A stretch of 64,000 nt of DNA from an uncultured bacterium. GTDB taxonomy: Bacteria; Patescibacteriota; Minisyncoccia; Moranbacterales; UBA2206. Position 1 is the first letter of the stretch. Each line of letters begins with the position of its first letter. The stretch lies in the NCBI GenBank assembly GCA_903841185.1, contig CAIMIV010000042.1, forward strand, positions 11,319 through 75,318, written 5' to 3'. Of the stretch, positions 5,977-29,972 are shown piece by piece. Position numbers and translations under genes: made by a program. Below the pieces are notes generated by a model. That model was not told where the DNA came from, did no database searches, and was given only the letters and a program-made list of their open reading frames with translations.

Positions 5977-6789
5977 ATGACCAAAATTATTATTGTAGAG
6001 GATGACCCGATGATCTCGGAAATCTATCATCGAAAATTTTCTGAATCCGACTTTGAGGTGTTGATTGCCACTAGTGCGGAACAGGCGCTTAATTTGGCGA
6101 AAACCGAGGAGAATGTTGATTTGGTTATGACGGATCTCATTATGCCCAAGATGGATGGCTTTGAATTGATTGAAGCTTTGCGGGGTGGGGATTATGATGA
6201 AAATATCAAAATCATCGTGACCAGCAACCTGAGCGAGCAGGCAGATCGGGAACGGGCGGCGACGCTCGGCGCCAATGGTTTTGTAGCGAAATCGGATTAT
6301 AGTCCCAGTGAGCTGGTGACTGAAGTGGAGAGATTAATGGATCAATATCAGCAACAGCAGAAAAATTCATCTAAGATAGAAAATTCTCAAAAGGGCGAAG
6401 GACATTCCAACGGCAAGAAAGTGTTATTGATTGAGGATGAGGAGATTTTCATCGAGATGTTTGGGGATAAATTGCGGCAAGATGGTTTCATAGTAGAAGC
6501 GGCCAGGAACGGGGCTTGGGGGGTGAAAGAAGTCATGAAAAATCCTTATGATCTTTTGGTGGTCGACATGGTCATGCCGGCCATGACGGGAGAGGAAATG
6601 GTGGCCAGAATCAAACTTAATGAAGATACGAAAAACATCCCCATTATTGTCCTATCAGCTTCTGTTGAGGAAGATGTGGCTAAGCGAGTGAAGGAGATGG
6701 GAGTGCAAGCTTTTTTTGTGAAAACCCAAATCACCCCAAGCATGTTGAGTCGAAAAGTTGAGGAGCTGCTAGGCATATTAGCAGCATAA
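5977..6789 (+). CDS. response regulator with two tandem receiver (REC) domains and no output domain
   Basis: REC1 spans IIIVEDDPM to DLVMTDLIMPKMDG; REC2 spans VLLIEDEE to DLLVVDMVMPAMTG. A Gln-rich linker QYQQQQ lies between them. Confidence 0.75.
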   Translation: MTKIIIVEDDPMISEIYHRKFSESDFEVLIATSAEQALNLAKTEENVDLVMTDLIMPKMDGFELIEALRGGDYDENIKIIVTSNLSEQADRERAATLGANGFVAKSDYSPSELVTEVERLMDQYQQQQKNSSKIENSQKGEGHSNGKKVLLIEDEEIFIEMFGDKLRQDGFIVEAARNGAWGVKEVMKNPYDLLVVDMVMPAMTGEEMVARIKLNEDTKNIPIIVLSASVEEDVAKRVKEMGVQAFFVKTQITPSMLSRKVEELLGILAA

Positions 6790-6862: not shown

Positions 6863-8182
6863 ATGGAAAGAACATTGATTGAAAAAACCCCCGGTTTAGT
6901 GGGTCAGATAATTAAGTTGAGAGGCTGGGTCAGTATTCGTCGTGACCATGGCAAGCTGATCTTTATTGATTTACGTGATCGCACTGGCAAGATTCAAATG
7001 GTGATTATCCCGGACAAGGAAGAAGCCTACAACGCGGCCAAGGAAGTACGCAATGAATATATTATTGAAGTGGAAGGCTTGGTGAAAGCCCGTCCGGGAG
7101 GAGCCAAGAACGAAAAAACCCCCACCGGTGGCGTGGAGATTGAGGTGGAAAAATTATTGGTGATTACCAAACCAGAGGTGGAATTTCCTGTTAATATCGC
7201 GGATGAAGAAATGAATTTGCAACTGGAAACTTTGCTGGATAATCGGACGGTTACTTTGCGCAACGAAAAAATCAAAGCTATTTTCAAGATCTATGCCGAG
7301 ATGGTGGGTGCTTATGCCAGATTTATGAAAGGCGAGAGTTTTGTGGAAATCAAAACGCCTAAAATTCTTAATTCCGCCACGGAAGGAGGGGCAAATTTTT
7401 TCAAAATAAAATATTTTGACCAGGATGCCTATCTGGCGCAAAGTCCGCAGTTCTATAAGCAAGCCGGAGCGGCGGTTTTTGAACGTGTGTTTGAAATAGG
7501 TTCTGTTTTTCGCGCCGAGCCTCACTATACGACCAGGCACGTCAATGAATATATTGGACTGGATGCAGAAATGGCTTTTATCGACAGTTTCGAGGAGGTG
7601 ATGGACGAGCTGGAAAAAACTATGCAATATGTGATAGGTGAAATTGCCAAAAATTGTCCAGCAGAGCTGGCTCTATACGGAGTGGAAATCTCGCCGGTAG
7701 AAAAAATCCCCAGAATGAAATTGACAGAAGCTTTGGAAATTTTAGATAAAGAATATGGGAAAAAAATGGAAGACGTGGATATTGATGCGGAAGGGGAACG
7801 CTTGATTTGCGAATGGGTGAAGAAAAATCACAACAGTGATTTCGTGTTTTTGACGCACTATCCGACCAACATCCGGCCGTTTTATTCTATGCCCAGTCCT
7901 GATCCGCAATACACCGAAACTTTTGACTTGTTATTTATGGGCGTGGAAATCGCCAGTGGTGGCCAGCGGATTCATGACTACAACCAACTGGTGGCCAGCA
8001 TGAAAAAACATCATCTCAATCCGGAAGATTTTGCGCATTATTTGGATATTTTCAAATATGGCATTCCTCCACATGGCGGATGGGGATTGGGTTCAGAGCG
8101 CATCGTGCAAAAAATTCTTGGCTTGGGCAGCATCAAAGAGGCGGTGCTTTTCCCGCGAGACGTGAAAAGACTGACGCCCTAA
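6863..8182 (+). CDS. aspS: aspartyl-tRNA synthetase, archaeal/eukaryal type (type 2, probably non-discriminating)
   Basis: Size is 439 aa. Motifs TPKILNSATEGGANFF, FRAEPHYTTRHVNE, GGQRIHDY, YGIPPHGGWGLGSERI and C-terminal FPRDVKRLTP match archaeal-type AspRS closely. Confidence 0.85.
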   Translation: MERTLIEKTPGLVGQIIKLRGWVSIRRDHGKLIFIDLRDRTGKIQMVIIPDKEEAYNAAKEVRNEYIIEVEGLVKARPGGAKNEKTPTGGVEIEVEKLLVITKPEVEFPVNIADEEMNLQLETLLDNRTVTLRNEKIKAIFKIYAEMVGAYARFMKGESFVEIKTPKILNSATEGGANFFKIKYFDQDAYLAQSPQFYKQAGAAVFERVFEIGSVFRAEPHYTTRHVNEYIGLDAEMAFIDSFEEVMDELEKTMQYVIGEIAKNCPAELALYGVEISPVEKIPRMKLTEALEILDKEYGKKMEDVDIDAEGERLICEWVKKNHNSDFVFLTHYPTNIRPFYSMPSPDPQYTETFDLLFMGVEIASGGQRIHDYNQLVASMKKHHLNPEDFAHYLDIFKYGIPPHGGWGLGSERIVQKILGLGSIKEAVLFPRDVKRLTP

Positions 8183-8232
8183 ATAGCCAATAATCTTATT
8201 GCCCAACAGGTTTAATAAAAACAAAAAAAATT

Positions 8233-9405
8233 ATGCACACAGAACACTTGGACGAAAATAAATTGCGCCTAACCAGTTTTGTTACTTTCTTGATGGGCTT
8301 TGCCCAAGCCATGTTGGCCTACATCCTGTCTTCCTATTTTAAGTTGGCCAGCGGTACTGAGAGTATCGGCATATTCTACGGTTTTTCCTATATCGTTTTT
8401 TTGTTGATAGTGCTCAATTTGCATAAGCTGGTGCGCTGGTGGGGGAAAGCGAGTATTTTTTATTTTTCCCTGCTGGCAAAAATTGTTATTTTGACCTTGC
8501 TGATTTTCGTGGATCCCTCCAAAATGGCTGTTTTTTTGATGATGCTATACATTATTTTTGGCAGTCTGGAATGGGTGGCGTTGGATACGATTGTGGAAAG
8601 TTTTTCCGTGGACCGAATGTCCGGACGAATTCGCGGTTTGCATTTGACGATTGTCAATGCGGGATTTTTGTTTGGGCCGTTTGTTTCAACTTTCATTTTG
8701 GGGAAGATGGATTTTTACGGGGTTTTTGTCATGGCGCTAGTTTTTAACTGCTTTGTTTTTATCTTCTCTTTGATAGGCTTCCGTCATGTGAATCATAAAT
8801 TTGAGCAAAAATTGAAGATAGCCGATGTCTTGCGGAAAATTGTGGTGCGAAAAAATATTCTGCGCATCTACTATATCTCATTGGTACTTGATTTTTTCTA
8901 CGCCTTGATGACCATCTATACCCCTATTTATCTGAAGGATCTGGGTTATTCTTGGGAGCAGATTGGTGTTATTTTCACTATCATGCTATTGCCTTTTGTG
9001 GTGGTGCAATATCCGATGGGCCGGTTGGCGGACAAGCGAACCGGGGAAAAAGAATTTATCATTTTATCGCTTTTGGTGATGGCCGCCTCCACTATCGCGA
9101 TTTATTTCATCGGTACGGGAACGGTTTTTCTTTGGGCACTGGTGCTCTTTGTTACCAGAATCGGAGCGGCTCTTTTGGAAATTCTGCGGGATTCTTATTT
9201 TTTCAAAAAAATTGATGCGGCTGACGTCGACATTATCGGCTTCTTTCGTACTTCGGTTCCGGTGGCCTATATTGCCGCCACGCTGTTTTCCGCCTTGATC
9301 GTTTTTTTCTTATCCATGCGATATGCTTTTATTTTGTCCGGACTGGTGACGCTTTCTGCTTTGTATCCGGCTTTTAAGCTCCGGGATAATAAAGCGGAGA
9401 AATAA
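8233..9405 (+). CDS. MFS transporter
   Basis: About 12 predicted TM helices. An MFS motif A-like MGRLADKRTGEKE lies between TM helices. Confidence 0.6.
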   Translation: MHTEHLDENKLRLTSFVTFLMGFAQAMLAYILSSYFKLASGTESIGIFYGFSYIVFLLIVLNLHKLVRWWGKASIFYFSLLAKIVILTLLIFVDPSKMAVFLMMLYIIFGSLEWVALDTIVESFSVDRMSGRIRGLHLTIVNAGFLFGPFVSTFILGKMDFYGVFVMALVFNCFVFIFSLIGFRHVNHKFEQKLKIADVLRKIVVRKNILRIYYISLVLDFFYALMTIYTPIYLKDLGYSWEQIGVIFTIMLLPFVVVQYPMGRLADKRTGEKEFIILSLLVMAASTIAIYFIGTGTVFLWALVLFVTRIGAALLEILRDSYFFKKIDAADVDIIGFFRTSVPVAYIAATLFSALIVFFLSMRYAFILSGLVTLSALYPAFKLRDNKAEK

Positions 9406-21674: not shown

Positions 21675-21887
21675 ATGGCAGTAAAAAAAGCAGCAGCTAA
21701 AAAAGTTGCGAAAAAGGTTGTAAAAAAAGTAGCAGCTAAAAAAGTTGTGAAAAAGGTTGTAAAAAAAGTAGCAGCTAAAAAAGTTGTGAAAAAAGTAGCA
21801 GCTAAGAAAGTTGCTAAGAAGGTTGTGAAAAAAGCTGTAAAAAAAGCAGCTCCAAAGAAAAAAGTTGTAGCAAAAAAGAAGAAATAA
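21675..21887 (+). CDS. lysine/alanine-rich histone H1-like nucleoid protein
   Basis: 70 aa composed almost entirely of AAKKV/VVKKV repeats, encoded by ~45-bp tandem DNA repeats. A bidirectional terminator follows. Confidence 0.6.
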   Translation: MAVKKAAAKKVAKKVVKKVAAKKVVKKVVKKVAAKKVVKKVAAKKVAKKVVKKAVKKAAPKKKVVAKKKK

Positions 21888-22024: not shown

Positions 22025-22945
22025 TTAAACCGTGATTTGACAGAGGCGCCATTTTTGTGCCAGGTCTTTATGAAATGCGATGTGCGCTTGCGGAAGACGC
22101 TTTCGGATTAGCACCGGCAGTTGTCTTTTTTGCTCCGGACTGATCTCCATGTAACATGTTACATGTACCAAGGCATGAGTATTTTTTAGAGTTTCCATTT
22201 GCTGCAGCAGCTCCTCATAGTGTGCCAGTCCGGCAGCGGCGCTGTAGAGAGCGGATCGCGGTTCATATTTTTGCACGGTGGGGTGGGTGGCGGCATAGAT
22301 TTCGTCGGAGAGATAGGGGAGGTTGGCCAAGATTATCATCTTGGAATTTTCAATGTTCAATTTACAATTTTCAATTAGTGTTTCAAGAAGATTTCCTTGT
22401 AAGAATTTTATTTTTTTGGCCACGCCGTGGGTCTGGGCGTTTTGCTGTGCAACCGTTAGCGCTGCATTAGAAATATCCACGGCGAAGAATTTTGAATTTT
22501 GTCCGCCAGCTGGCGGATTGAATTTCGAATCAATGATTAAATTTTTTAAGATAGAAATAATAATATTGCCCGACCCAGTTCCCACGTCTACAATCATTTG
22601 ATGTTTGATGTTTGATGTTTGATGTTTGCTGGATATTTCCTGCAAGGCCATCTCGACCATCAATTCGGTCTCAGGACGGGGGATGAGCGTATCTGGGGTC
22701 ACAGCGAATGACAGGCCAAAAAACTCCCTGTAGCCCAGAATATAGGCCAAGGGCTCATCGCTCATTCTTCGCGTAATTTTTAAGTCTAAATTTTTAATTT
22801 TTAATGATGGAAGGACATATTCCGGGTAGGTCAGGACGAACTCGCGCGACTTTCCAATTTCTGCCGCAATCAGCACATCCAAGTCCAAGCGGTCAATTTT
22901 CCCGGCATATTTTTTCTGCAGGTCCGCGATGGTGGTCTTTGTCAT
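22025..22945 (-). CDS. prmC: peptide chain release factor N5-glutamine methyltransferase
   Basis: EPLAYILGYREFFGLSFAVTPDTLIPRPETE, SAM motif VDVGTGSGNI, and NLPY in place of NPPY. Confidence 0.75.
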   Translation of the reverse strand: MTKTTIADLQKKYAGKIDRLDLDVLIAAEIGKSREFVLTYPEYVLPSLKIKNLDLKITRRMSDEPLAYILGYREFFGLSFAVTPDTLIPRPETELMVEMALQEISSKHQTSNIKHQMIVDVGTGSGNIIISILKNLIIDSKFNPPAGGQNSKFFAVDISNAALTVAQQNAQTHGVAKKIKFLQGNLLETLIENCKLNIENSKMIILANLPYLSDEIYAATHPTVQKYEPRSALYSAAAGLAHYEELLQQMETLKNTHALVHVTCYMEISPEQKRQLPVLIRKRLPQAHIAFHKDLAQKWRLCQITV

Positions 22946-22954
22946 AATATTTTT

Positions 22955-23815
22955 TTAATCCAGTGGGCTTTTGATAGTCTGCAAATTAGTATTGGCCACC
23001 CTGGTGTAGATCTGTGTCGTTTCAAGGCGTGCATGACCCAGCAACTCTTGGATATAGCGAATGCTCGTGCCGGCTTCTAAAAGGTGAGTGGCGAAAGAAT
23101 GGCGCAAGCTGTGGCAAGAAACTTTTTTAGCAATGCCGGCCAGCTCAACTGCTTTTTTAACTATTTTTTCAGCACTTTCAGCAGTCAGATGTCCTTGTCC
23201 ACCAGCTCCAGTAAATAAATAGTCATTTGGCTTCTTCAGGGTTAATTGTTTTTGTAATGTTGGAATGAGTTTTTCAGATAACAGTGTGCAACGATCTTTT
23301 CCTCCCTTACCTTGGCGAACCATAATCATTTTTCTATCCAAATCAAAATCGCACATTCGGATTTTGATTGTCTCACTAACGCGCAGACCTGCCGAATACA
23401 TTAGTGATATCAAAAAATTATGTTTGGGGTTAGTTGTTTTCTCGAGCATTCGTTCAATCTCTTCTTTACTAAGGATTGTCGGCAGATAGTTGGTTTTTTT
23501 GGCACCTTTTATATCAAAGAAAAATTTGCGTTTCAATATTTGACGGTAATAGAATTTAAGGGCATTAAGTGCAACATTCAGGGTGGAATTGGCACAGTCC
23601 TTGTCTTTCAAAGAGATTAGGTATTGGCGAATGTCATCATTGGTTACTAGTTTGGGGCTTTTATCAGTAAATTGCAAAAAAAGCTTATTATAAAGTACAT
23701 AAGACTTTATAGTTTTTGGGCTAAAACCCCTGATTCTCAACTCTTGTTCTAAATTATACAGAGGGTCTCGTTCTTGAGTTGTTGTTTTTCCATCCATATG
23801 ATAGTATGTGTTCAT
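22955..23815 (-). CDS. tyrosine site-specific recombinase, XerC/XerD-like
   Basis: Catalytic residues in RVSE, KGGKDR, HSLRHSFATHLL, LLGH and QIYTRV. Size is 286 aa. Confidence 0.8.
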   Translation of the reverse strand: MNTYYHMDGKTTTQERDPLYNLEQELRIRGFSPKTIKSYVLYNKLFLQFTDKSPKLVTNDDIRQYLISLKDKDCANSTLNVALNALKFYYRQILKRKFFFDIKGAKKTNYLPTILSKEEIERMLEKTTNPKHNFLISLMYSAGLRVSETIKIRMCDFDLDRKMIMVRQGKGGKDRCTLLSEKLIPTLQKQLTLKKPNDYLFTGAGGQGHLTAESAEKIVKKAVELAGIAKKVSCHSLRHSFATHLLEAGTSIRYIQELLGHARLETTQIYTRVANTNLQTIKSPLD

Positions 23816-23894
23816 ATGATAGTTATGATTACATCAAAATCATAGCATAAACCATTGCTCAAGCCAATAACTTAGCAGGTACGAATAAAACTAG

Positions 23895-24189
23895 TTATCG
23901 GAAATAATTTATCACCTATGAATGAAAAATACAAAAAAATAGCCTTATCAGCATATATTCTTACAGCTGCCTATTTATCGACCGTATATAATTTCATTGG
24001 TCTCGTGGGGGCTGATTTTATCTTGGCGATTTTGGTTGCGATTTTACTAAATAGCTTTTTAGCATATCTGATATGGTCGAGTGATAAAACGCGAAAGTAT
24101 TCGGCTATTATTTTGACGATATTATTGTTGTTGGCCGCTCTTCATTTGTTGCCAGTATTTTAAAGGTGGTGATAAATTACATCCGATAA
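23895..24189. repeat. 295-bp unit bounded by 22-bp inverted repeats, enclosing a small ORF
   Basis: Left ttatcggaaataatttatcacc (23895-23916) against the reverse complement of right ggtgataaattacatccgataa (24168-24189) matches at 20 of 22 positions. The enclosed ORF starts 2 nt after the left IR and stops 5 nt before the right IR. Confidence 0.45.
23918..24163 (+). CDS. small membrane protein (2 TM)
   Basis: 81 aa with two hydrophobic helices. Confidence 0.45.
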   Translation: MNEKYKKIALSAYILTAAYLSTVYNFIGLVGADFILAILVAILLNSFLAYLIWSSDKTRKYSAIILTILLLLAALHLLPVF

Positions 24190-24386
24190 CAAAGAATATC
24201 TGGTTCAAAAAATTTGCCACAACTAAAACTAAAAGGAGGGCAAATTTTTCTCTCCCAAATCCCGCACTTTTCCGTTTTGTTGTAATTTAGAGTATAATGA
24301 GATGAATAAATAAATAAGAATATTAAGGTTTTGTGCCTAAAAGCCAAAGTGCAGGACTTCAGATATTCTTAAACGTTAAACGAAAT
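24187..24386 (+). repeat. copy 1 of a ~200-bp island repeat
   Basis: Begins taacaaagaatatctggttc and ends cttaaacgtta. Contains the hairpin aaaaatttgcc..ggcaaattttt with AAGGAGG in the loop and a tagagTATAATgag -10-like box. It is more than 90 percent identical to copies at 24886 and 29396. Confidence 0.7.
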
Positions 24387-24440
24387 TTTGTTCAAAAATA
24401 TTTTTTCATTTTTTATTGAGCCTTTTTGAAATTTTTTTAG

Positions 24441-24486
24441 AAAAAAGAAAGCCCCAGGTGGAATTGAATTTTCCACGAGGGGCTTA
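24441..24486 (-). terminator. rho-independent terminator for minus-strand small gene
   Basis: Hairpin agccccaggtggaa..ttccacgaggggct with a T-run on the minus strand. Confidence 0.45.
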
Positions 24487-24506
24487 GTTGTTGGCGTGTA
24501 ATGCGC

Positions 24507-24749
24507 TTATAAGTAACAAACGGGTCCGTTCTCACCTTTTTTTGTGTAAATTAGTGAAACCATTTGTGCAATAAGGCAGACCAGAAAAAATTCATACCTG
24601 CTTCCATTGATTTTTGGAATGTCAAATACCACGCTTGTGATTGCACTTAACATTCCAATGGTCCCCATAATTACGCCGATCCAGGCAAAAAACGTGTTAT
24701 TTTTATGCCAAATTTCTTTCATTATGACATCCTCCTTTTCGAGTTTCAT
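24507..24749 (-). CDS. small membrane protein
   Basis: 80 aa, two TM helices, followed by a terminator. Confidence 0.4.
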   Translation of the reverse strand: MKLEKEDVIMKEIWHKNNTFFAWIGVIMGTIGMLSAITSVVFDIPKINGSRYEFFLVCLIAQMVSLIYTKKGENGPVCYL

Positions 24750-24885
24750 GGTTTAATGTACTGTTTAACACCAAAATTAGCGTTCAAAGTAGCATAGCAG
24801 AAAACCAGTAACCCGTCAAGCCCACGGCCAAAAAATTTCAAAAAGGCTCTTTTAATAAGGAATATATTTTTGAACAAAACATCGT

Positions 24886-25088
24886 TTAACAAAGAATATC
24901 TGGTTCAAAAAATTTGCCGCAGTTAAAAACTAAAAGGAGGGCAAATTTTTCTCTCCCAAATCCAGCACTTTTCCGTTTTGCTGTAATTTAGAGTATAATG
25001 AGATTAACAAAGTAAATAGGAATATCAAGGTTTTGTGCATAAAAACCAAAGTGCAGGACTTCAGATATTCTTAAACGTTAAGTGAAAT
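24886..25088 (+). repeat. copy 2 of the ~200-bp island repeat
   Basis: Near-identical to copy 1 and lies upstream of the + strand ORF at 25216. Confidence 0.7.
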
Positions 25089-25215
25089 AAATCTTTATCT
25101 TTGTGGAAATTTCGAGCCAGGTTGCGTTGAACCAAGACGAAAATTTGATTTTTTTAAAAGTTTTTCCGCCACAGGCGGGATTATTTGGGGCTATTTTATT
25201 TTTAAATATAAAAAT

Positions 25216-26001
25216 ATGGAAAAAATTAACAAAAGCACAACACTGTTATTAAGTTCTTTTGCATTACTTCTGGTGCTAATCATTGCTGGGGTCATATCTT
25301 TCAAAAAAGAAATATCAACCTTAAAAAAAACACAGCAGTCATTATTACAAGAGAATGCGAAACTAAAGCAGGTCACAATTACTGATTCTCCTCAAAAAGC
25401 TCCCGTTGCTGAAATAACGGTTGGCAGTCCATGCGATGTGAATAATGGAAATATTTTAAATTCTAAGGGTCTGCAATGTTATTTTTATGATAGCTTAGAT
25501 TCAAGTGGAAATGAAATATTTCCTCGACACGGGGTATGGATTAAGCCTGATTTACGAAATATGCAAATTGATTCAAAGCTATATGAAATATATTTTAAGT
25601 CATGGAAAAAATATGTAAGTCCGGATAAAACTATTAGTTTTTCTTACCCACAAAACTGGAAAGTTGATGAGTCAAGTTGGAAGGATGGTAACTTATCTAT
25701 ACAATCAAGTGACTATTCACCGATATCAATTTCTAAGATTGAAAATAATGCTATTACAATAGAGCAGAGAATTAGTGATGATGAAAATGATAGACCATTT
25801 GAGAGAACTATTATCGAATTAAATGGCGTTAGTGGCACGAGACTCGACATCGCCCCAAAAGATAATTTAAGTGACCAAGAGCAAATAAAATTCTATTTTC
25901 AAAAGGATAAATATTACGTTGAATTAAGTGTTGCAAAAGCTGGATATGCTGCGTATGATTTTCCGACAGAATATTTATTGAGTACGATAAAAATAAAATA
26001 G
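25216..26001 (+). CDS. secreted or membrane-anchored hypothetical protein
   Basis: 261 aa with an N-terminal signal/anchor helix and no recognisable domain. Confidence 0.5.
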   Translation: MEKINKSTTLLLSSFALLLVLIIAGVISFKKEISTLKKTQQSLLQENAKLKQVTITDSPQKAPVAEITVGSPCDVNNGNILNSKGLQCYFYDSLDSSGNEIFPRHGVWIKPDLRNMQIDSKLYEIYFKSWKKYVSPDKTISFSYPQNWKVDESSWKDGNLSIQSSDYSPISISKIENNAITIEQRISDDENDRPFERTIIELNGVSGTRLDIAPKDNLSDQEQIKFYFQKDKYYVELSVAKAGYAAYDFPTEYLLSTIKIK

Positions 26002-26117
26002 CCCCAAATAATTGTTTTGCCATTCTGCAAAACAAAAACTTTTAAAAAAAATCAAATTTTCTATTAGCATGGATAAAGTTTGTGCTAATAAAAATGAAGA
26101 TAAAAATTTACATCACT

Positions 26118-26298
26118 TAACACGGCATATGCGGTTCAAAAATTTTGCGCTATTATATTTCAAGGAGTGCAAAATTTCCTCTCCCAAATTGCGCTGACGG
26201 AATGGCAAGTTTAGTGATATAATCAAGATAAGCGAAATTAACAAAATAATCAATCAATCCACGGCGCAACTTCGCATGTGCCGATACGTTAGACGAAA
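26118..26298 (+). repeat. diverged copy 3 of the island repeat
   Basis: Shares the start tacatcacttaac, a hairpin with compensatory changes (aattttgc/gcaaaatt), AAGGAG in the loop, ctctccc and a gtgaTATAATc box. It ends cgttagacgaaat. Confidence 0.5.
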
Positions 26299-26435
26299 TA
26301 AATTTATTTTATTTTTTAAATTCGCTTTTTATAATAAGAAAAAATAAGTTTTTTTATCTATTTATATAGGGGTAAAAAGGTGTTTTCTCCGCTGAGGCTG
26401 CGAAAACGGATTTATTAATATAATTTGTTTATATT

Positions 26436-28172
26436 ATGCAAAAAAATAACGAGATTGATTCATTAAAATTCAGCTGGGGTGATTTGGCGCGAGCGATTTT
26501 ATATTTATTTGGGGAAAAGAAAAATGAATATCTTTTTTCTTTGTTTGTCGTGGCTGTATTTAATTTATACGTAATTGTGCCGCCTTTGATAATTGGAAAA
26601 GTGATTGATTTTTTCAGCACATACAAATCAGGTGAATCGTTGAATACTTTTTATTTTTATGTGATTTTTCTGGGAATTTTCATTGGCGCCGTGCATTATT
26701 TCAATCTCTCCGCAATCCAGAAATTTCTACGTCTTAGCAACGAGTTAGTTTATAAGATTCGCGTCCAGGGCTTTGAGAAGTTATTGGAACAATCACTGTC
26801 CGAGCATGGTGAAGAAAATACAGGCGCCAAAAATCAAAAGATTCAAAATGGCGTGACGGCTTTTAATTTGTTTTCCGAAGCCTTGAATGACAGAATACTT
26901 CCCTCAATAGCGACGCTAGTCGGTGTTTTTGGCGTATTTTTGTATTTGAATTTTATCTATAATATTATTCTGATCGCTTATTTAATTGGCTTTGTCTACA
27001 TCCTTAGATTTTTCAGAAAGAAATTCGTAATGCTTCATTATGAAAAGAGTTTAGCTATGGAAAAATCAAGTGGTACTTATATTGAAGGTTTGAGCAATAT
27101 TACCACGATTAAGGCTAGTGGTGCAGAAAAAAATTTCAAAAGATCAGTCAGCAAAAACGAAGAGGCACGTAATTTTTTTGATCAAGAGATTTTGCGTGTC
27201 CGTGTAAATCAGTGGAAGTTATTTAACATTTATAACGGTATTTATACGGGAATATTTTTGTTTGTTATTGGTAGGGATGTAATCGCTGGCGTGGTTTCGA
27301 TCGGATCAATTGCAATTTTGTTGGCTTATTTAGAGAAAATAACCGACGCATCTGGCAAAGTGCTTGGTATGTATGGCTATTTAATTGACAAAAGAACATC
27401 TATCGCCCGCATGATGACTATTTTTTGGGCTGATAACAATATTTTAACTGGCGAAAAAGAATTCCCAGTCGATTGGCAGGAGATAAAATTAAGCAATGCG
27501 AGTTATGCTTATAAAAATGAAAAAAACACTAAAACTAATATTAACGGTGTCAATCTGGTGATTCAAAAAAACCAAAAAGTTGGCATCATTGGCACAACTG
27601 GCAGTGGCAAATCAACGCTTGTAAAATTATTGCTTGGCCTATACCCGCTTGATAAAGGAGAATACAAAATCGGCACAACTAATTTTTATGACATCAAGCA
27701 TGATGAAATATTCAAGCACATAGCAATTGTCTTACAAGAGTCGGAAATGTTCAATATTTCACTCAAAGAAAATATTGCGTTAAGTGAAAAAATTGATGAA
27801 GGGCGTTTATTGCACGCGATCAACATTGCTCAATTGGATGAGGTGGTGAAAAGCTTACCTAATGGCTTTGAAACTTTAATCGGGGAAAAGGGATACCATC
27901 TTTCTGGCGGCGAACGCCAACGCGTCGGCATTGCTCGAGCGATTTATAAAGATCCTGAAATTATGATTTTTGACGAAGCTACTTCATCACTTGATGTGCA
28001 AACAGAAAAGAAAATTCAAAAAGCACTTTTGGACAATCTTCAGCAAAAAACTATTATCATAGTCGCACATCGAACGAATACCCTGGAAAAAGTAGATGTT
28101 ATCTATAAAGTGGAAGGTGGAAAAATTGTTCAACAAGGAAGTTATGAGGAGTTTTTTGGTATTCACCAATGA
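26436..28172 (+). CDS. ABC transporter, fused permease/ATP-binding subunit
   Basis: TM domain plus GTTGSGKSTL, LSGGERQRVGIARA, IMIFDEATSSLD and VAHR. Confidence 0.85.
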   Translation: MQKNNEIDSLKFSWGDLARAILYLFGEKKNEYLFSLFVVAVFNLYVIVPPLIIGKVIDFFSTYKSGESLNTFYFYVIFLGIFIGAVHYFNLSAIQKFLRLSNELVYKIRVQGFEKLLEQSLSEHGEENTGAKNQKIQNGVTAFNLFSEALNDRILPSIATLVGVFGVFLYLNFIYNIILIAYLIGFVYILRFFRKKFVMLHYEKSLAMEKSSGTYIEGLSNITTIKASGAEKNFKRSVSKNEEARNFFDQEILRVRVNQWKLFNIYNGIYTGIFLFVIGRDVIAGVVSIGSIAILLAYLEKITDASGKVLGMYGYLIDKRTSIARMMTIFWADNNILTGEKEFPVDWQEIKLSNASYAYKNEKNTKTNINGVNLVIQKNQKVGIIGTTGSGKSTLVKLLLGLYPLDKGEYKIGTTNFYDIKHDEIFKHIAIVLQESEMFNISLKENIALSEKIDEGRLLHAINIAQLDEVVKSLPNGFETLIGEKGYHLSGGERQRVGIARAIYKDPEIMIFDEATSSLDVQTEKKIQKALLDNLQQKTIIIVAHRTNTLEKVDVIYKVEGGKIVQQGSYEEFFGIHQ

Positions 28173-28232
28173 CCTCAAACATGATAAAATAAAGATAAGT
28201 TTCACTGCCTATTTTAATAAAATACAAAATTC

Positions 28233-29255
28233 ATGTCCAAAAACAATCATAAAATTAGCATAAAAGACGAATTGACCGAATTTCTGCTTTACACAGCCCC
28301 AAGTGGCAAGGTAAAAGTAGAAATTTACTTTCATGACGAAAATATTTGGCTTACCCAAGACAAAATGGCCAAATTATTTGGCGTGCAACAACCAGCTATT
28401 GCCAAACACTTGAAGAATATTTTTGAAAGCGGTGAATTGCTGGAAAATTCAGTTCATTCCATTTTGGAATATACTGCCAGCGATGGCAAAAAGTATCAAA
28501 CCAAATTTTATAATCTTGACGCCATAATTTCCGTTGGATATCGGGTAAATTCAGCTCAAGCTACTCAATTTCGCATCTGGGCAACAGAAAGGCTTAAAGA
28601 GTACATCATAAAAGGTTTCACCATAGATGATGAGAGATTGAAGAATGGAAGATATTTTGACAAAGATTATTTTCTCGAACTTTTGGAAAGAGTCCGTTCA
28701 ATTCGTGCTAGTGAGCGAAAAATTTATCAGCAAATTACGGATATTTTTGCTGAATGTAGTATGGATTACAGTCCAACATCAGAAATTGCTAAAAATTTTT
28801 ATGCAATGATTCAAAATAAATTCCATTTTGCTATTACTGGCAAAACTGCAGCTGAGATTATTTATGAGACGGCTGACAAGCAAAAACCATTTATGGGACT
28901 TAAGACTTGGAAAAATTCACCAAATGGCAGAATTATCAAATCCGACACAGTTATCGCTAAAAATTATCTTAACGAGGATAAAATAAAAAAACTGGAAAGA
29001 GGCATTGTCGGCTATTTTGATTACATTGAAAGATTGATTGAGAATCACACCGCTCTCACGATGGAAAAGTTGGCGGAATCTGTAAATAACTTTTTGGAGT
29101 TTAACAAGTACGAAGTGCTTGAAGGAAAGGGCACGATTTCTCATGCCCAAGCAGAACAAAAAGCGTTTCAAGAATATGACGAATATAATAAGACGCAGGC
29201 AATAGAATCTGATTTTGACAAACTTGTAAAATCTTTACCGACTGGAGAAAAATAA
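28233..29255 (+). CDS. RhuM-family virulence/DNA-binding protein
   Basis: N-terminal VKVEIYFHDENIWLTQDKMAKLFGVQQPAIAKHL and the AIISVGYRVNS region match the RhuM family. Confidence 0.65.
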   Translation: MSKNNHKISIKDELTEFLLYTAPSGKVKVEIYFHDENIWLTQDKMAKLFGVQQPAIAKHLKNIFESGELLENSVHSILEYTASDGKKYQTKFYNLDAIISVGYRVNSAQATQFRIWATERLKEYIIKGFTIDDERLKNGRYFDKDYFLELLERVRSIRASERKIYQQITDIFAECSMDYSPTSEIAKNFYAMIQNKFHFAITGKTAAEIIYETADKQKPFMGLKTWKNSPNGRIIKSDTVIAKNYLNEDKIKKLERGIVGYFDYIERLIENHTALTMEKLAESVNNFLEFNKYEVLEGKGTISHAQAEQKAFQEYDEYNKTQAIESDFDKLVKSLPTGEK

Positions 29256-29395
29256 GGAGTTTTGAATTTTAGGCATTCCCGCCAGAGGCGGACAGGCATC
29301 CCTGACCCCTCTGCCCAAAATCCAAAACAAAAAAACTTATTTAATCTATTTAGAATAAAAAGCGAATTTAAAAAAGAAAATAAATTTACATCGTC

Positions 29396-29615
29396 TAACA
29401 AAGAATATCTGGTTCAAAAAATTTGCCGCAGTTAAAAATACAAGGAGGGCAAATTTTTTTCTCCCCTGCCTACCGGCAGGCAGGCAAATCCCGCACTTTT
29501 CCATTTTGTCGTAATTTAGGGTATAATAGGATTAATAAATAAATAGGAATATTAAGGTTTTATGCATAAAAACCAAAGTGCAGGACTTCAGATATTCTTA
29601 AACGTTAGGTGTAAT
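29396..29615 (+). repeat. copy 4 of the ~200-bp island repeat carrying a 22-bp palindromic insertion
   Basis: Same as copies 1 and 2, except that ctgcctaccggcaggcaggca is inserted after ctccc. The same 25-mer occurs at 10297. Confidence 0.7.
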
Positions 29616-29652
29616 TTATTTAAAATCCCTTAAAAAATAAATTAAGAAAAAT

Positions 29653-29955
29653 ATGACAACAATAAATGAGTTTCAAGAAATGTGTGCCAAGGTGGTGGGG
29701 GAGATTGACGCAAAATATGGCATTGCTCGTGACCCGCATTTTAGCTTCACACAATTTATGGAAGAAGTTGGTGAACTGGCGAAAGAGATAAATAAGCCGA
29801 AGTTGCGCAACAAAGAAATGGATCGGGAAAATTTGAACGGTGAATTTGCCGACGTCATCTTGCAGTTTTTCACACTTGCCAGTATGCTAGAAGTAGATGT
29901 GGAAAAGGCAGTTGAAGCTAAAATGGCGATACTGAAAGAGCGACATGATTTATAA
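29653..29955 (+). CDS. MazG-like nucleotide pyrophosphohydrolase domain protein
   Basis: 100 aa with the EEVGELAKEI...EFADVILQ pattern of the MazG/NTP-PPase all-alpha fold. Confidence 0.55.
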   Translation: MTTINEFQEMCAKVVGEIDAKYGIARDPHFSFTQFMEEVGELAKEINKPKLRNKEMDRENLNGEFADVILQFFTLASMLEVDVEKAVEAKMAILKERHDL

Positions 29956-29972
29956 TTTTAAATTACAATCCT

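What the first reader, a model, noticed from the sequence alone, without database searches (positions are those of the whole stretch)
23895..24189. 22-bp inverted repeats precisely bracket the first cargo ORF next to the recombinase
ttatcggaaataatttatcacc lies 2 nt before the ATG. Its near-perfect inverse (20 of 22) lies 5 nt after the stop of the 81-aa membrane-protein ORF. The right repeat abuts the first 200-bp element. IR-bounded segments beside a tyrosine recombinase are the signature of invertible switches or mini-cassettes.
Basis: seen in the sequence. Interest (0 to 1): 0.55.

Follow-up and report, generated by a model that had tools for sequence, protein, structure and literature searches.

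The report
Integron-like cassette boundary in CPR bacterium
The two inverted 22-bp repeats are the ends of the first mobile gene cassette in an integron-like gene-capture array of an uncultivated Candidatus Moranbacteria bacterium, and the neighbouring recombinase lacks the protein domain thought to be essential for integrons.

Summary
The repeat is real: 23894-23916 and 24168-24190 match 21/23, with none expected by chance. It is not special to the first ORF. All four complete cargo blocks downstream of the recombinase (22955-23815, minus strand) have their own inverted repeat. So do 28 non-identical cassettes from 12 related loci (15-68 nt, median 28).

Left arms start GTTAnnnGAAAT. Right arms end ACATCnnnTAAC. 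Each right arm runs into a 67-212 nt element with attC grammar (R''-L''...L'-R').

Three comparisons show that the mobile unit is ORF plus downstream element, cut within GTT:
- a 100%-identical duplicated cassette;
- three different first cassettes behind an identical attI;
- a same-strain variant that precisely lacks cassettes 3 and 4.

The repeat therefore marks a cassette's two ends. In an excised circle they would pair and extend the site's stem.

No inversion was seen in 8 assemblies or 40 inter-cassette matches.

The recombinase is closest to integron integrases but lacks their 41-residue I2 insertion. I found no description of this system in the searchable literature.

Verdict: the "mini-cassette" reading is right and the "invertible switch" reading is wrong. 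The system looks like a new integron variant in CPR bacteria. The folded single-strand mechanism is inferred, not shown.

The parts
22955..23815 (-). Tyrosine recombinase (286 aa). IntI-like/XerA-like and catalytically intact, without the IntI-specific I2 insertion. Transcribed divergently from the array.
   Evidence: Pfam Phage_integrase 9e-39 plus SAM_4. NCBIfam XerA/integron-integrase model 234 bits, above the 220 cut-off; integrase_gron 229 bits, below the 265 cut-off. Best PDB hit is VchIntIA 2a3v, split around IntI residues 186-239. A 41-residue gap against IntI1 is shared by the whole family, with R-K-HxxR-H-Y invariant.
23816..23894 (+). attI-like region: 79 nt between the recombinase ATG and the G of the first GTT. 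It holds a conserved palindrome (TATGATTACATCAAAATCATA) and a GCCAA block, and ends ...ATAAAACTAG.
   Evidence: Conserved among relatives up to ...CTAGTT and variable immediately after. The junction sits at a fixed 79-80 nt (close clade) or 103 nt (~55% identity clade) from the ATG. Three different first cassettes follow an identical attI. A candidate minus-strand promoter TTGGCT-17-TATGAT lies at 23867-23839.
23895..23916 (+). Left arm of cassette 1, the finding's left repeat. It is the R' half (TTATCGG AAAT) plus a cassette-specific stem extension.
23918..24163 (+). Cargo ORF of cassette 1: 81 aa, with hydrophobic stretches that by eye look like about three transmembrane segments (no TM predictor was run); no family match.
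   Evidence: The identical protein occurs on 14 contigs, always in the same orientation in the places shown.
24168..24190 (+). Right arm of cassette 1, the finding's right repeat. It is the stem extension plus the R'' box (ACATCCGATAAC).
24187..24378 (+). attC-like element 1 (TAAC...GTTA, 192 nt). It has an inner L-box stem AAGAATATCTG/CAGATATTCTT and a 4-nt bulge AAAC before GTTA. Cassette 1 as a whole spans 23895-24375.
   Evidence: In the circular-junction form it folds into one continuous hairpin.
24376..25077 (+). Cassette 2: arms 24375-24437 and 24830-24890, an 80-aa ORF at 24507-24749 on the minus strand with its own promoter-like and terminator-like signals, and element 2 at 24887-25080.
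   Evidence: (I2, I3). The same frame and element occur with different cargo in L007; similarity starts at ACGTTA|AACG and ends at CGTTA|.
25078..26288 (+). Cassette 3: arms 25077-25101 (continuing to 25204) and (from 25988) 26097-26121, a 261-aa ORF at 25216-26001, and the divergent element 3 at 26118-26291 with a compensated L box (CGGCATATGCG/CGCATGTGCCG).
   Evidence: (I4, I5, I9). Absent from the same-strain variant L075.
26289..29604 (+). Cassette 4: 50-68 nt arms 26288-26355 and 29329-29399, two ORFs (ABC transporter 26436-28172 and RhuM-family 28233-29255), and element 4 at 29396-29607.
   Evidence: (I1, I6). Absent from the same-strain variant L075. The frame is shared with an L026 cassette that has different cargo.
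29605..29972 (+). Terminal cassette 5: left arm 29604-29629, a MazG-like ORF at 29653-29955, a decayed right arm (~29957-29972), and no element.
   Evidence: (PF03819 MazG).

Best explanation
The 22/23-bp inverted repeat marks the two ends of the first gene cassette in an integron-like array of a Candidatus Moranbacteria (CPR/Patescibacteria) chromosome.

Shown:
- The array consists of a divergent tyrosine recombinase gene, a conserved attI-like site ending in ...CTAG|TT, and then cassettes.
- Each cassette is made of TTAnnnGAAAT plus a specific left arm, the cargo, a specific right arm plus ACATCnnnTAAC, an attC-like element, and a final G.
- The mobile unit is cargo plus its downstream element, cut within GTT.

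Inferred:
- When a cassette is excised as a circle, its 5' end is joined to the end of its own element. The two arms then lie on either side of the element and base-pair.
- The folded single strand would form one long hairpin: the extension, a conserved 2-nt non-Watson-Crick spot, an 11-bp R arm (TTAnnnGAAAT, 10/11 identical to the XerD arm of dif), a central region with a 3-4 nt bulge, and an L arm.
- That hairpin would imitate a duplex Xer-type core site. The neighbouring recombinase would recombine it with attI by exchange at G|TT.
- Because the enzyme lacks the I2 domain that lets classical IntI hold a 7-bp R box through extrahelical bases, it would need a full-length duplex arm. That would explain why complementarity here extends well beyond 7 bp.
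For: Architecture:
- Four elements with R''-L''...L'-R' grammar follow the ORFs, all in one orientation relative to the recombinase. This holds in the window and in relatives whose recombinases are 39-90% identical.

Cassette boundaries and mobility:
- A duplicated cassette in L009 is 100% identical from ACGTTAGGCG through the ORF and the whole downstream element to AAACGTTAG. The upstream elements of the two copies are unrelated.
- Window cassette 2 and its L007 copy share sequence exactly from GTTA to GTTA.
- Four contigs with 480 nt of identical recombinase and attI carry three different first cassettes, diverging right after ...CTAGTT.
- A same-strain contig (99.9% identity) lacks cassettes 3 and 4 precisely, with the junction AAACGTTA|GGTG.

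Pairing:
- 28 non-identical cassettes have inverted repeats of 15-68 nt. Positions 12-22 pair in 23-28 of 28 using 2-4 base identities, against 4-10 of 16 for the array neighbour.
- In an unbiased set defined from L boxes only, the triplet is complementary in 10/15, against 16/210 for non-self pairings.
- The L box has 15 distinct sequence pairs with 2-4 pair types at 7 of 12 positions: 11.5/12 for self pairing against 8.8/12 for cross pairing.
- Circular-junction folds are 7.6-21 kcal/mol more stable than array-context folds.

Enzyme:
- The closest solved structure is an integron integrase. The catalytic residues are intact and the I2 insertion is absent.

Other:
- The attI junction sits at a fixed distance from the ATG.
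- Cargo is mostly co-oriented with the array: 20 co-oriented, 5 opposite, 3 empty.
- The array is AT-richer than its flanks.
- The XerD-arm sequence of dif was checked in PMC2731167.
Against: - No experiment or read-level data show folding, single-strand exchange or circles.
- In classical integrases the I2 domain is reported to be essential (PMC9668308, PMC4792948), so an I2-less enzyme acting on hairpins is unproven.
- In array context the element's fold is not better than shuffled sequence (z -1.3 and -1.8).
- The bottom strand is more stable in only 3 of 4 cassettes.
- Three cassettes have only an 8-9 bp R box and no extension.
- The cassette 3+4 deletion lies within 44 nt that are identical in elements 2 and 4, so homologous recombination could have produced that one event.
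- Cassettes were selected for complementarity, which inflates positions 5-14.
- The recombinase might also be, or only be, the cell's Xer enzyme (the 'Cand' subgroup, PMC8138268).
- IntegronFinder's attC model could not be run.
Confidence: 0.75

Rival explanations
1. The same cassette array, but with conventional duplex chemistry. Each R' junction would be a 28-bp dif-like site (L' arm 11 bp, ~6-bp centre, R arm TTAnnnGAAAT). A Xer-type enzyme would recombine it as double-stranded DNA, like IMEX elements or Acinetobacter pdif modules. The inverted copies (R'' side plus extension) would be by-products or accessory sites.
For: - The enzyme has Xer/XerA architecture and lacks I2.
- The R arm matches the XerD arm of dif at 10 of 11 positions.
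- An 11-6-11 site can be drawn at every R' junction.
- ORFs and elements are each flanked by inverted sites, as in pdif modules.
- Classical IntI can still perform duplex-duplex reactions (PMC4792948).
Against: - It leaves three things unexplained: the compensatory covariation of L''/L' within elements, of nnn across cargo, and of the 15-68 nt cassette-specific extension.
- Centres and outer L-arm bases differ between sites in a single array and between attI (AAACTAG) and the elements (vvvvAAACG). Two-strand exchange would therefore create mismatches.
- The locus is not at a GC-skew switch, so attI is not a terminus dif.
- The mobile unit contains one element, not a module bounded by two sites.
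Confidence: 0.15
2. Invertible switch. The recombinase would flip the 295-bp segment, or the ~200-bp promoter-bearing element, between its inverted repeats to turn expression on and off.
For: - Inverted repeats lie next to a tyrosine recombinase.
- One window ORF, and 5 of 25 cargo ORFs overall, face the other way.
- The elements contain a TATAAT-type motif.
Against: - Cassette 1 has the same orientation in 8 assemblies.
- 0 of 40 inter-cassette matches are inverted.
- About 35 element copies share one orientation.
- The fixed AA versus TG asymmetry between the arms, in 26 of 28 cassettes, would be swapped by inversion.
- The arms are cassette-specific beyond 12 nt, so one enzyme could not recognise them all as duplex inversion sites.
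Confidence: 0.03
3. The repeats act at another level. They might pair the 5' and 3' UTRs of each cassette mRNA for stability or processing, or be terminal inverted repeats of MITE-like insertions unrelated to the recombinase.
For: - The arms reach to within 1-12 nt of start codons and overlap stop codons.
- The cassette 'frames' are conserved around unrelated cargo.
- 'Empty' frames exist.
Against: - There are no target-site duplications and no transposase.
- Boundaries coincide with the conserved GTT core and with the attI junction next to the recombinase gene.
- The arms begin with the conserved recombinase-type 11-mer.
- Minus-strand cargo would not carry the arms in its mRNA in the same way.
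- No known RNA family matches.
Confidence: 0.05

Closest known systems
Sedentary chromosomal integrons (e.g. the Vibrio cholerae superintegron with VCR-type attC repeats)
   Same: - A divergent tyrosine recombinase gene with an attI site next to it.
- An array of mostly co-oriented, mostly unknown-function cassettes, each made of an ORF plus a 3' imperfect-palindrome site.
- R''-L''...L'-R' grammar with a GTT core and the crossover at G|TT.
- Site structure conserved while sequence co-varies.
- Array-specific, highly similar repeat families.
- Cassette content that varies between strains.
- AT-rich cargo.

   Different: - The recombinase lacks the IntI-specific I2 insertion, and the W157 equivalent is R.
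- The triplet after GTTA is unconstrained (T at position 5 in 11 of 28), not RRR.
- Complementarity extends 15-68 nt beyond or around the R box, against 4-12 nt in the R46 cassettes.
- There is a fixed 2-nt mismatch instead of the classical extrahelical bases.
- The spacer between the R and L boxes is partly paired.
- Elements are often ~190-210 nt and carry a TATAAT-type motif.
- The host is a CPR bacterium.
Archaeal integrons (Ghaly et al. 2022, PMC9668308)
   Same: Integron-type cassette arrays outside the classical bacterial phyla, found in metagenome-assembled genomes, including ultrasmall lineages.
   Different: The archaeal IntIs are reported to have the defining additional domain. Here it is absent.
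Xer/dif systems with one recombinase (XerA, XerS, XerH), and elements that exploit them (IMEX, Acinetobacter pdif modules)
   Same: - The enzyme's size and architecture, and its NCBIfam assignment to the XerA-type model.
- An 11-bp arm nearly identical to the XerD arm, with the crossover at the arm/centre border.
- The site lies next to the recombinase gene, as for XerS/difSL (stated in the abstract of PMC2731167).
- Modules are flanked by inverted sites, as in pdif modules.
   Different: - The locus is not at the replication terminus.
- The sites are long structured palindromes with covariation rather than 28-bp duplex sites.
- The mobile unit carries one site at its 3' end.
- The arrays are hypervariable between near-identical strains.
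Invertible DNA switches and shufflons (FimB/E, Rci, Bacteroides invertons)
   Same: Short inverted repeats flank a small segment next to a tyrosine recombinase gene.
   Different: No flipped forms were found. The arms are asymmetric in a fixed way. The rearrangements observed are insertions, deletions and duplications.

Membership tests
Integron | Tyrosine recombinase of the IntI clade encoded next to the array and transcribed divergently from it | tested here: inconclusive
   The gene is adjacent and divergent. The best solved-structure match is VchIntIA (E 8.5e-49), ahead of XerA and XerD. However, TIGR02249 integrase_gron scores 229 bits, below its 265 cut-off, while the XerA-type model passes. 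No phylogeny was done.
Integron | IntI-specific additional domain (I2 helix around patch III), reported as necessary for activity | tested here: not met
   IntI residues 186-239 of 2a3v correspond to 12 residues here, and the W157 equivalent is R. There are gaps of 31 + 10 residues against IntI1. The gap is shared by all 8 family members aligned; the longer proteins differ only at the N-terminus.
Integron | attC sites: imperfect inverted repeats R''-L''...L'-R' with structure conserved and sequence variable | tested here: met
   Element ends read nnnTAAC-A-[L''] ... [L']-AAAC/ATAC/AAC-GTTAnnn. There are 15 distinct L-box pairs with compensatory changes at 7 of 12 positions. Lengths are 67-212 nt, with some longer. 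IntegronFinder's attC covariance model was not available.
Integron | R' core GTTRRRY / R'' RYYYAAC | tested here: inconclusive
   GTT and AAC are invariant. In the window, 4 of 5 cores fit GTTRRRY (GTTAAAC, GTTAAGT, GTTAGAC, GTTAGGT); GTTATCG, the finding's own core, does not. Across 28 cassettes, position 5 is T in 11.
Integron | Cassette = cargo plus its own 3' attC, with the crossover at G|TT, so the cassette's 5' end complements its own R'' | tested here: met
   Exact duplicate in L009. Shared cassette in L007. attI junctions. Precise absence of cassettes 3 and 4 in a same-strain contig. Own-arm complementarity 10/15 against 16/210.
Integron | attI site beside intI where cassettes are inserted | tested here: met
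   The conserved 79-80 nt (or 103 nt) region ends in ...CTAGTT. Three different first cassettes sit behind a 100% identical attI.
Integron | Extrahelical bases and an unpaired central spacer that impose bottom-strand choice | tested here: inconclusive
   There is a 3-4 nt bulge between the R and L boxes, and a conserved non-Watson-Crick spot at arm positions 10-11. These are not the classical G/T extrahelical bases. The spacer is partly paired.
Integron | Recombination of folded single-stranded attC with replicative resolution | not testable with these tools
   Only indirect support: covariation, and non-homologous centres between attI and the elements.
Xer/dif chromosome-dimer resolution site | 28-bp duplex site (11-6-11) at the replication terminus | tested here: not met
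   GC skew is positive across the whole 64-kb window, with no switch at 23.8 kb. An 11-6-11 site can be drawn at R' junctions, and the R arm matches the XerD arm at 10/11, but the position argues against a dif role.
pdif-type modules | Discrete modules bounded by two inversely oriented conserved 28-bp Xer sites | tested here: not met
   The arms are cassette-specific beyond 12 nt. The duplicated unit carries one element at its 3' end only.
Invertible switch / shufflon | The segment is found in both orientations between its inverted repeats | tested here: not met
   One orientation in 8 assemblies. 0 of 40 inverted matches. The arm asymmetry is fixed. Raw reads were not available.

The most novel reading that the evidence does not exclude
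CPR bacteria carry a natural I2-less integron. A Xer/IntI-like recombinase would capture and shuffle hairpin-type gene cassettes without the domain considered indispensable for attC recombination. It would use sites whose stems are extended to a full Xer-type duplex arm and marked by a fixed 2-nt mismatch. This would be either the ancestral pre-I2 state of integrons or an independent invention. Either way it would give a concrete answer to the 'which came first, I2 or attC' paradox raised by Escudero et al. 2016.
Probability: 0.45. Interest if true: 0.88.

Novelty: new variant of a known kind. Interest (0 to 1): 0.72.

Why it matters
- **Definition of integrons.** Integrons are the textbook gene-capture system, and their integrase is defined by the I2 insertion that reads extrahelical bases of folded attC sites. 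The field has an explicit chicken-and-egg problem: how could I2 evolve without attC sites, and attC sites without I2 (PMC4792948)? Here attC-like cassettes show clear signs of site-specific turnover in nature and sit next to an IntI-like enzyme with no I2. That makes the question experimentally approachable with the enzyme, attI and cassette sequences in hand.
- **Reach of cassette capture.** The system extends cassette-based gene capture to the Candidate Phyla Radiation, whose recombinases of this type have been filed as presumed housekeeping Xer proteins (PMC8138268).
- **Detection.** It suggests that tools requiring the I2 motif miss a class of integron-like platforms.
- **Cassette origin.** The conserved 'frames' around unrelated cargo and the 'empty' cassettes may also bear on the unsolved origin of gene cassettes.

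Tried and rejected
- **Known RNA family.** Rfam gave nothing for the elements or arms at gathering or E<=1 thresholds.
- **Fold of element 1 in array context.** It is not better than shuffled sequence. The structure only becomes strong once the cassette's own 5' end is joined on.
- **Promoter scan.** The total number of sites is at chance level (28 against 24.7). The TATAAT motif inside the elements is suggestive only and is absent from the short elements.
- **Terminus/dif idea.** Rejected from GC skew.
- **Second recombinase in the window.** None found.
- **Viral or plasmid-like carriage of the junction motif.** No match in viral contigs.
- **Automatic attC detection in R46 with strict RYYYAAC/GTTRRRY rules.** This failed, so the control was read by eye and rests on two cassettes.
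- **Longer family members.** They do not carry an I2-like insertion; the extra length comes from N-terminal start calls.
- **Literature.** Searches for CPR, Patescibacteria, Parcubacteria or Moranbacteria integrons, and for XerA-linked attC arrays, found no description. Papers outside the searchable library could still exist.

Full report
**1. The observation**

The inverted repeat is real. The repeat finder reports arms 23894-23916 and 24168-24190, 23 nt long and 91% complementary (I10).

The left arm ends 1 nt before the ATG of an 81-aa hydrophobic ORF (23918-24163). The right arm starts 4 nt after its stop codon and overlaps the start of the first ~200-bp element.

**2. The repeat is one case of a rule**

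A tyrosine recombinase gene lies at 22955-23815 on the minus strand (Pfam Phage_integrase plus SAM_4). Downstream of it there are four related elements, at 24187-24378, 24887-25080, 26118-26291 and 29396-29607.

Each of the four complete cargo blocks has its own inverted repeat (I10, I3, I9, I1; up to 50-68 nt for the fourth). The fifth, terminal block keeps only a decayed right arm (section 8).

All left arms begin GTTAnnnGAAAT. All right arms end ACATCnnnTAAC. The triplet nnn is complementary across the cargo, not across the element.

Each element starts TAAC-A-[11-12 nt] and ends with the complement of that stretch followed by AAAC/ATAC-GTTA. This is the R''-L''...L'-R' grammar of integron attC sites.

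**3. Relatives**

- An exact 32-mer of the element occurs in 8 CPR genomes: Moranbacteria, Parcubacteria and one Nomurabacteria.
- Homologues of the recombinase are almost all ~286 aa and come from Moranbacteria or Patescibacteria.
- Wherever upstream DNA is available, elements lie upstream of and divergent from the recombinase gene, all in one orientation. This holds down to 39-57% protein identity.
- The first GTT junction lies at a fixed 79-80 nt from the start codon in the close clade (79 nt in the window) and 103 nt in the ~55% clade.
- The intervening sequence is conserved up to ...ATAAAACTAGTT and variable immediately after. This is attI-like behaviour.

**4. What moves**

Four independent comparisons define the mobile unit.

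- (a) In L009 a cassette is present twice at 100% identity, from ACGTTAGGCG through the ORF, the right arm and the entire downstream element to AAACGTTAG. The two upstream elements are unrelated.
- (b) Window cassette 2 and a cassette in L007 (recombinase 44% identical) share sequence from ACGTTA|AACG to CGTTA| and not beyond.
- (c) Four metagenome contigs with 480 nt of 100% identical recombinase plus attI carry three different first cassettes, diverging right after ...CTAGTT.
- (d) Contig L075 from another sample of the same strain (99.9% identity) reads recombinase, c1, c2, element 2, then GTTA|GGTG and the MazG cassette. Cassettes 3 and 4 (~4.5 kb) are precisely absent.

So the unit is cargo plus its downstream element, cut within the conserved GTT. 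This is integron cassette anatomy.

**5. Why the arms are complementary**

With a G|TT crossover, the bases after GTT at a cassette's 5' end belong to that cassette. On circularisation they are joined to the end of its own element. Left and right arms are therefore the two sides of one stem in the excised form.

Folding the circular junctions gives one continuous hairpin: extension, one mismatch, R box, 3-nt bulge, L box. These folds are 7.6-21 kcal/mol more stable than the array-context folds. The array-context fold of element 1 is not better than shuffles.

Pairing statistics:
- Over 28 non-identical cassettes from 12 loci, the repeats measure 15-68 nt, with a median of 28.
- Positions 12-22 are complementary in 23-28 of 28 with 2-4 base identities per position. 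Against the array neighbour the figure is 4-10 of 16.
- Position 10 is A/T in 26 of 28 and position 11 is A/G in 27 of 28. On the top strand that reads A·A and A·C; on the bottom strand it reads T·T and T·G.
- That set was selected for complementarity, so I repeated the test on cassettes defined only from consecutive L-box-verified elements. The triplet plus G is complementary in 10/15, against 16/210 for non-self pairs. Most failures are intervals with a missed intermediate element.
- Three cassettes have only the 8-9 bp R box, so the extension is usual but not obligatory.
- The L box shows 15 distinct sequence pairs with compensatory changes at 7 of 12 positions: 11.5/12 self against 8.8/12 cross.
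- Divergent elements coexist in a single array with a single enzyme. This argues that the enzyme reads structure rather than sequence.

**6. No inversion**

- Cassette 1 has the same orientation in all 8 assemblies that carry it.
- All 40 inter-cassette similarities are co-oriented.
- About 35 element copies share one orientation.
- The fixed AA versus TG asymmetry of the arms would be exchanged by inversion.

**7. The enzyme**

- The best solved-structure match is the Vibrio integron integrase 2a3v (E 8.5e-49), ahead of XerA (6.6e-41) and XerD (2.3e-24).
- The match is split: IntI residues 186-239 correspond to 12 residues here, and W157 is R.
- Against IntI1 the identity is 30% end to end, with gaps of 31 + 10 residues at the I2 position.
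- All family members aligned share the gap. R, K, HxxR, H and Y are invariant.
- NCBIfam places it above cut-off in the 'XerA / integron integrase' model and below cut-off in integrase_gron.
- The literature treats the additional domain as defining and necessary (PMC9668308; PMC4792948). It files CPR enzymes as a Xer-related 'Cand' subgroup (PMC8138268).

**8. Mechanistic reading (inferred)**

- The conserved 11-mer TTAnnnGAAAT matches the XerD arm of dif (TTATGTTAAAT; PMC2731167) at 10 of 11 positions in the TTATGTGAAAT variant seen in L018, L023 and L026.
- The G|TT crossover falls at the arm/centre border, as for Xer.
- The folded site then reads: R arm (11 bp, with the fixed mismatch at its outer end), a centre (C·G, a 1 x 3-4 nt internal loop, 4 covarying bp), and an L arm (RTATSYG).
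- An I2-less enzyme cannot clamp a 7-bp R box through extrahelical bases, so it would need a full duplex arm. This would explain why complementarity here runs well past 7 bp. In the classical R46 array it is 4 nt (oxa2) and 10/12 nt (aadA1) (small control).
- The centres of attI (AAACTAG) and of the elements (vvvvAAACG) differ, and element centres differ within one array. This is easier to reconcile with single-strand exchange than with two-strand exchange.
- GC skew is positive across the window, so the locus is not at a terminus and attI is unlikely to be the chromosomal dif.
- The same skew puts the bottom strand of the sites on the leading-strand template. From memory, this is the orientation usual in sedentary integrons.

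**9. Other features**

- The array is AT-richer than its flanks (33-35% against 40-45% GC).
- Cargo is mostly co-oriented with the array: 20 co-oriented, 5 opposite, 3 empty.
- Cargo is typical cassette fare: small membrane proteins, an ABC transporter, RhuM, MazG, and in relatives cupin, kinase, HAD, methylase and Fic.
- The terminal MazG cassette has a decayed right arm and no element.
- Cassette ends ('frames', ~100-190 nt on each side, including the repeat) are shared at 80-94% between cassettes with unrelated cargo. 'Empty' 41- and 113-nt cassettes exist. How cargo enters the frame is unexplained.

**10. Comparison and novelty**

The system works like a sedentary chromosomal integron and meets most structural criteria: attI, attC grammar, cassette anatomy and turnover. 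It fails the defining protein criterion (I2). It also departs in its core consensus, its stem extension and its mismatch mark.

I therefore do not file it as a canonical integron. I file it as a new variant of that kind. A duplex Xer-type mechanism remains a live rival (~0.15).

I found no description of such arrays in CPR bacteria, or of XerA-type enzymes linked to attC arrays, in the searchable library. Work outside that library cannot be excluded.

Noticed in passing
window 24375-24437 / 24770-24890 and 26288-26421 / 29260-29399; L007 (oriented) 6906-7535; L026 upstream region 7168-8761: Cassette 'frames'. The first ~100-190 nt and last ~100-150 nt of cassettes, including the inverted repeat, are 80-94% identical between cassettes whose cargo ORFs are unrelated. 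Cargo seems to be exchanged or inserted inside a conserved frame.
   Followed up: partly
L001 (oriented) 54-94; L020 upstream region 572-684 and 5985-6025: 'Empty' cassettes. A left arm is followed directly by its right arm (41-nt and 113-nt spans) with no ORF, between normal elements.
   Followed up: no
window 29957-29972: The last (MazG) cassette ends in a decayed copy of its right arm (TTTTAAATTACAATCCTATGG) fused to the ATG of the next ORF, with no element. The array end appears fossilised.
   Followed up: partly
window 29465-29485: Element 4 carries a 20-nt G+C-rich palindromic insert (CCTGCCTACCGGCAGGCAGG) that elements 1-3 lack. Related elements in L007, L013 and L021 carry inserts of 200-700 nt.
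   Followed up: no
window 24278-24300, 24980-25000, 26194-26223, 29498-29527: Each ~190-210 nt element contains a TATAAT hexamer reading toward the next cassette (CTGACG-18-TATAAT in element 3, TTTCCA-18-TATAAT in element 4). This could be a per-cassette promoter. It is absent from the short (67-145 nt) elements.
   Followed up: partly
window 23824-23867: The attI-like region holds a conserved palindrome (TATGATTACATCAAAATCATA) and an invariant GCCAA block. On the minus strand these read TTGGCT-17-TATGAT with an upstream TG, a candidate promoter for the recombinase gene.
   Followed up: partly
L009 733-11765: In a relative with an 89%-identical recombinase, the recombinase plus array (~8 kb) sits between prfA (RF-1) and prmC, genes that from memory are usually adjacent. 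Far from the recombinase there are large 'cassette-like' intervals that contain a prolyl-tRNA-synthetase-like gene and a sodium:solute symporter.
   Followed up: no
L011 1086-1963: In another close relative (90%), an AbiEii/DUF6922 pair is inserted between the recombinase gene and prmC, and an IS (rve) lies just beyond.
   Followed up: no
window 21675-21887: A 70-aa ORF made almost entirely of AKKV repeats (Lys/Ala-rich, histone H1-like composition), with a mirror ORF on the other strand.
   Followed up: no
window 22598-22625: A short tandem repeat (TGATGTT x3-4) lies inside the prmC-like methyltransferase gene.
   Followed up: no
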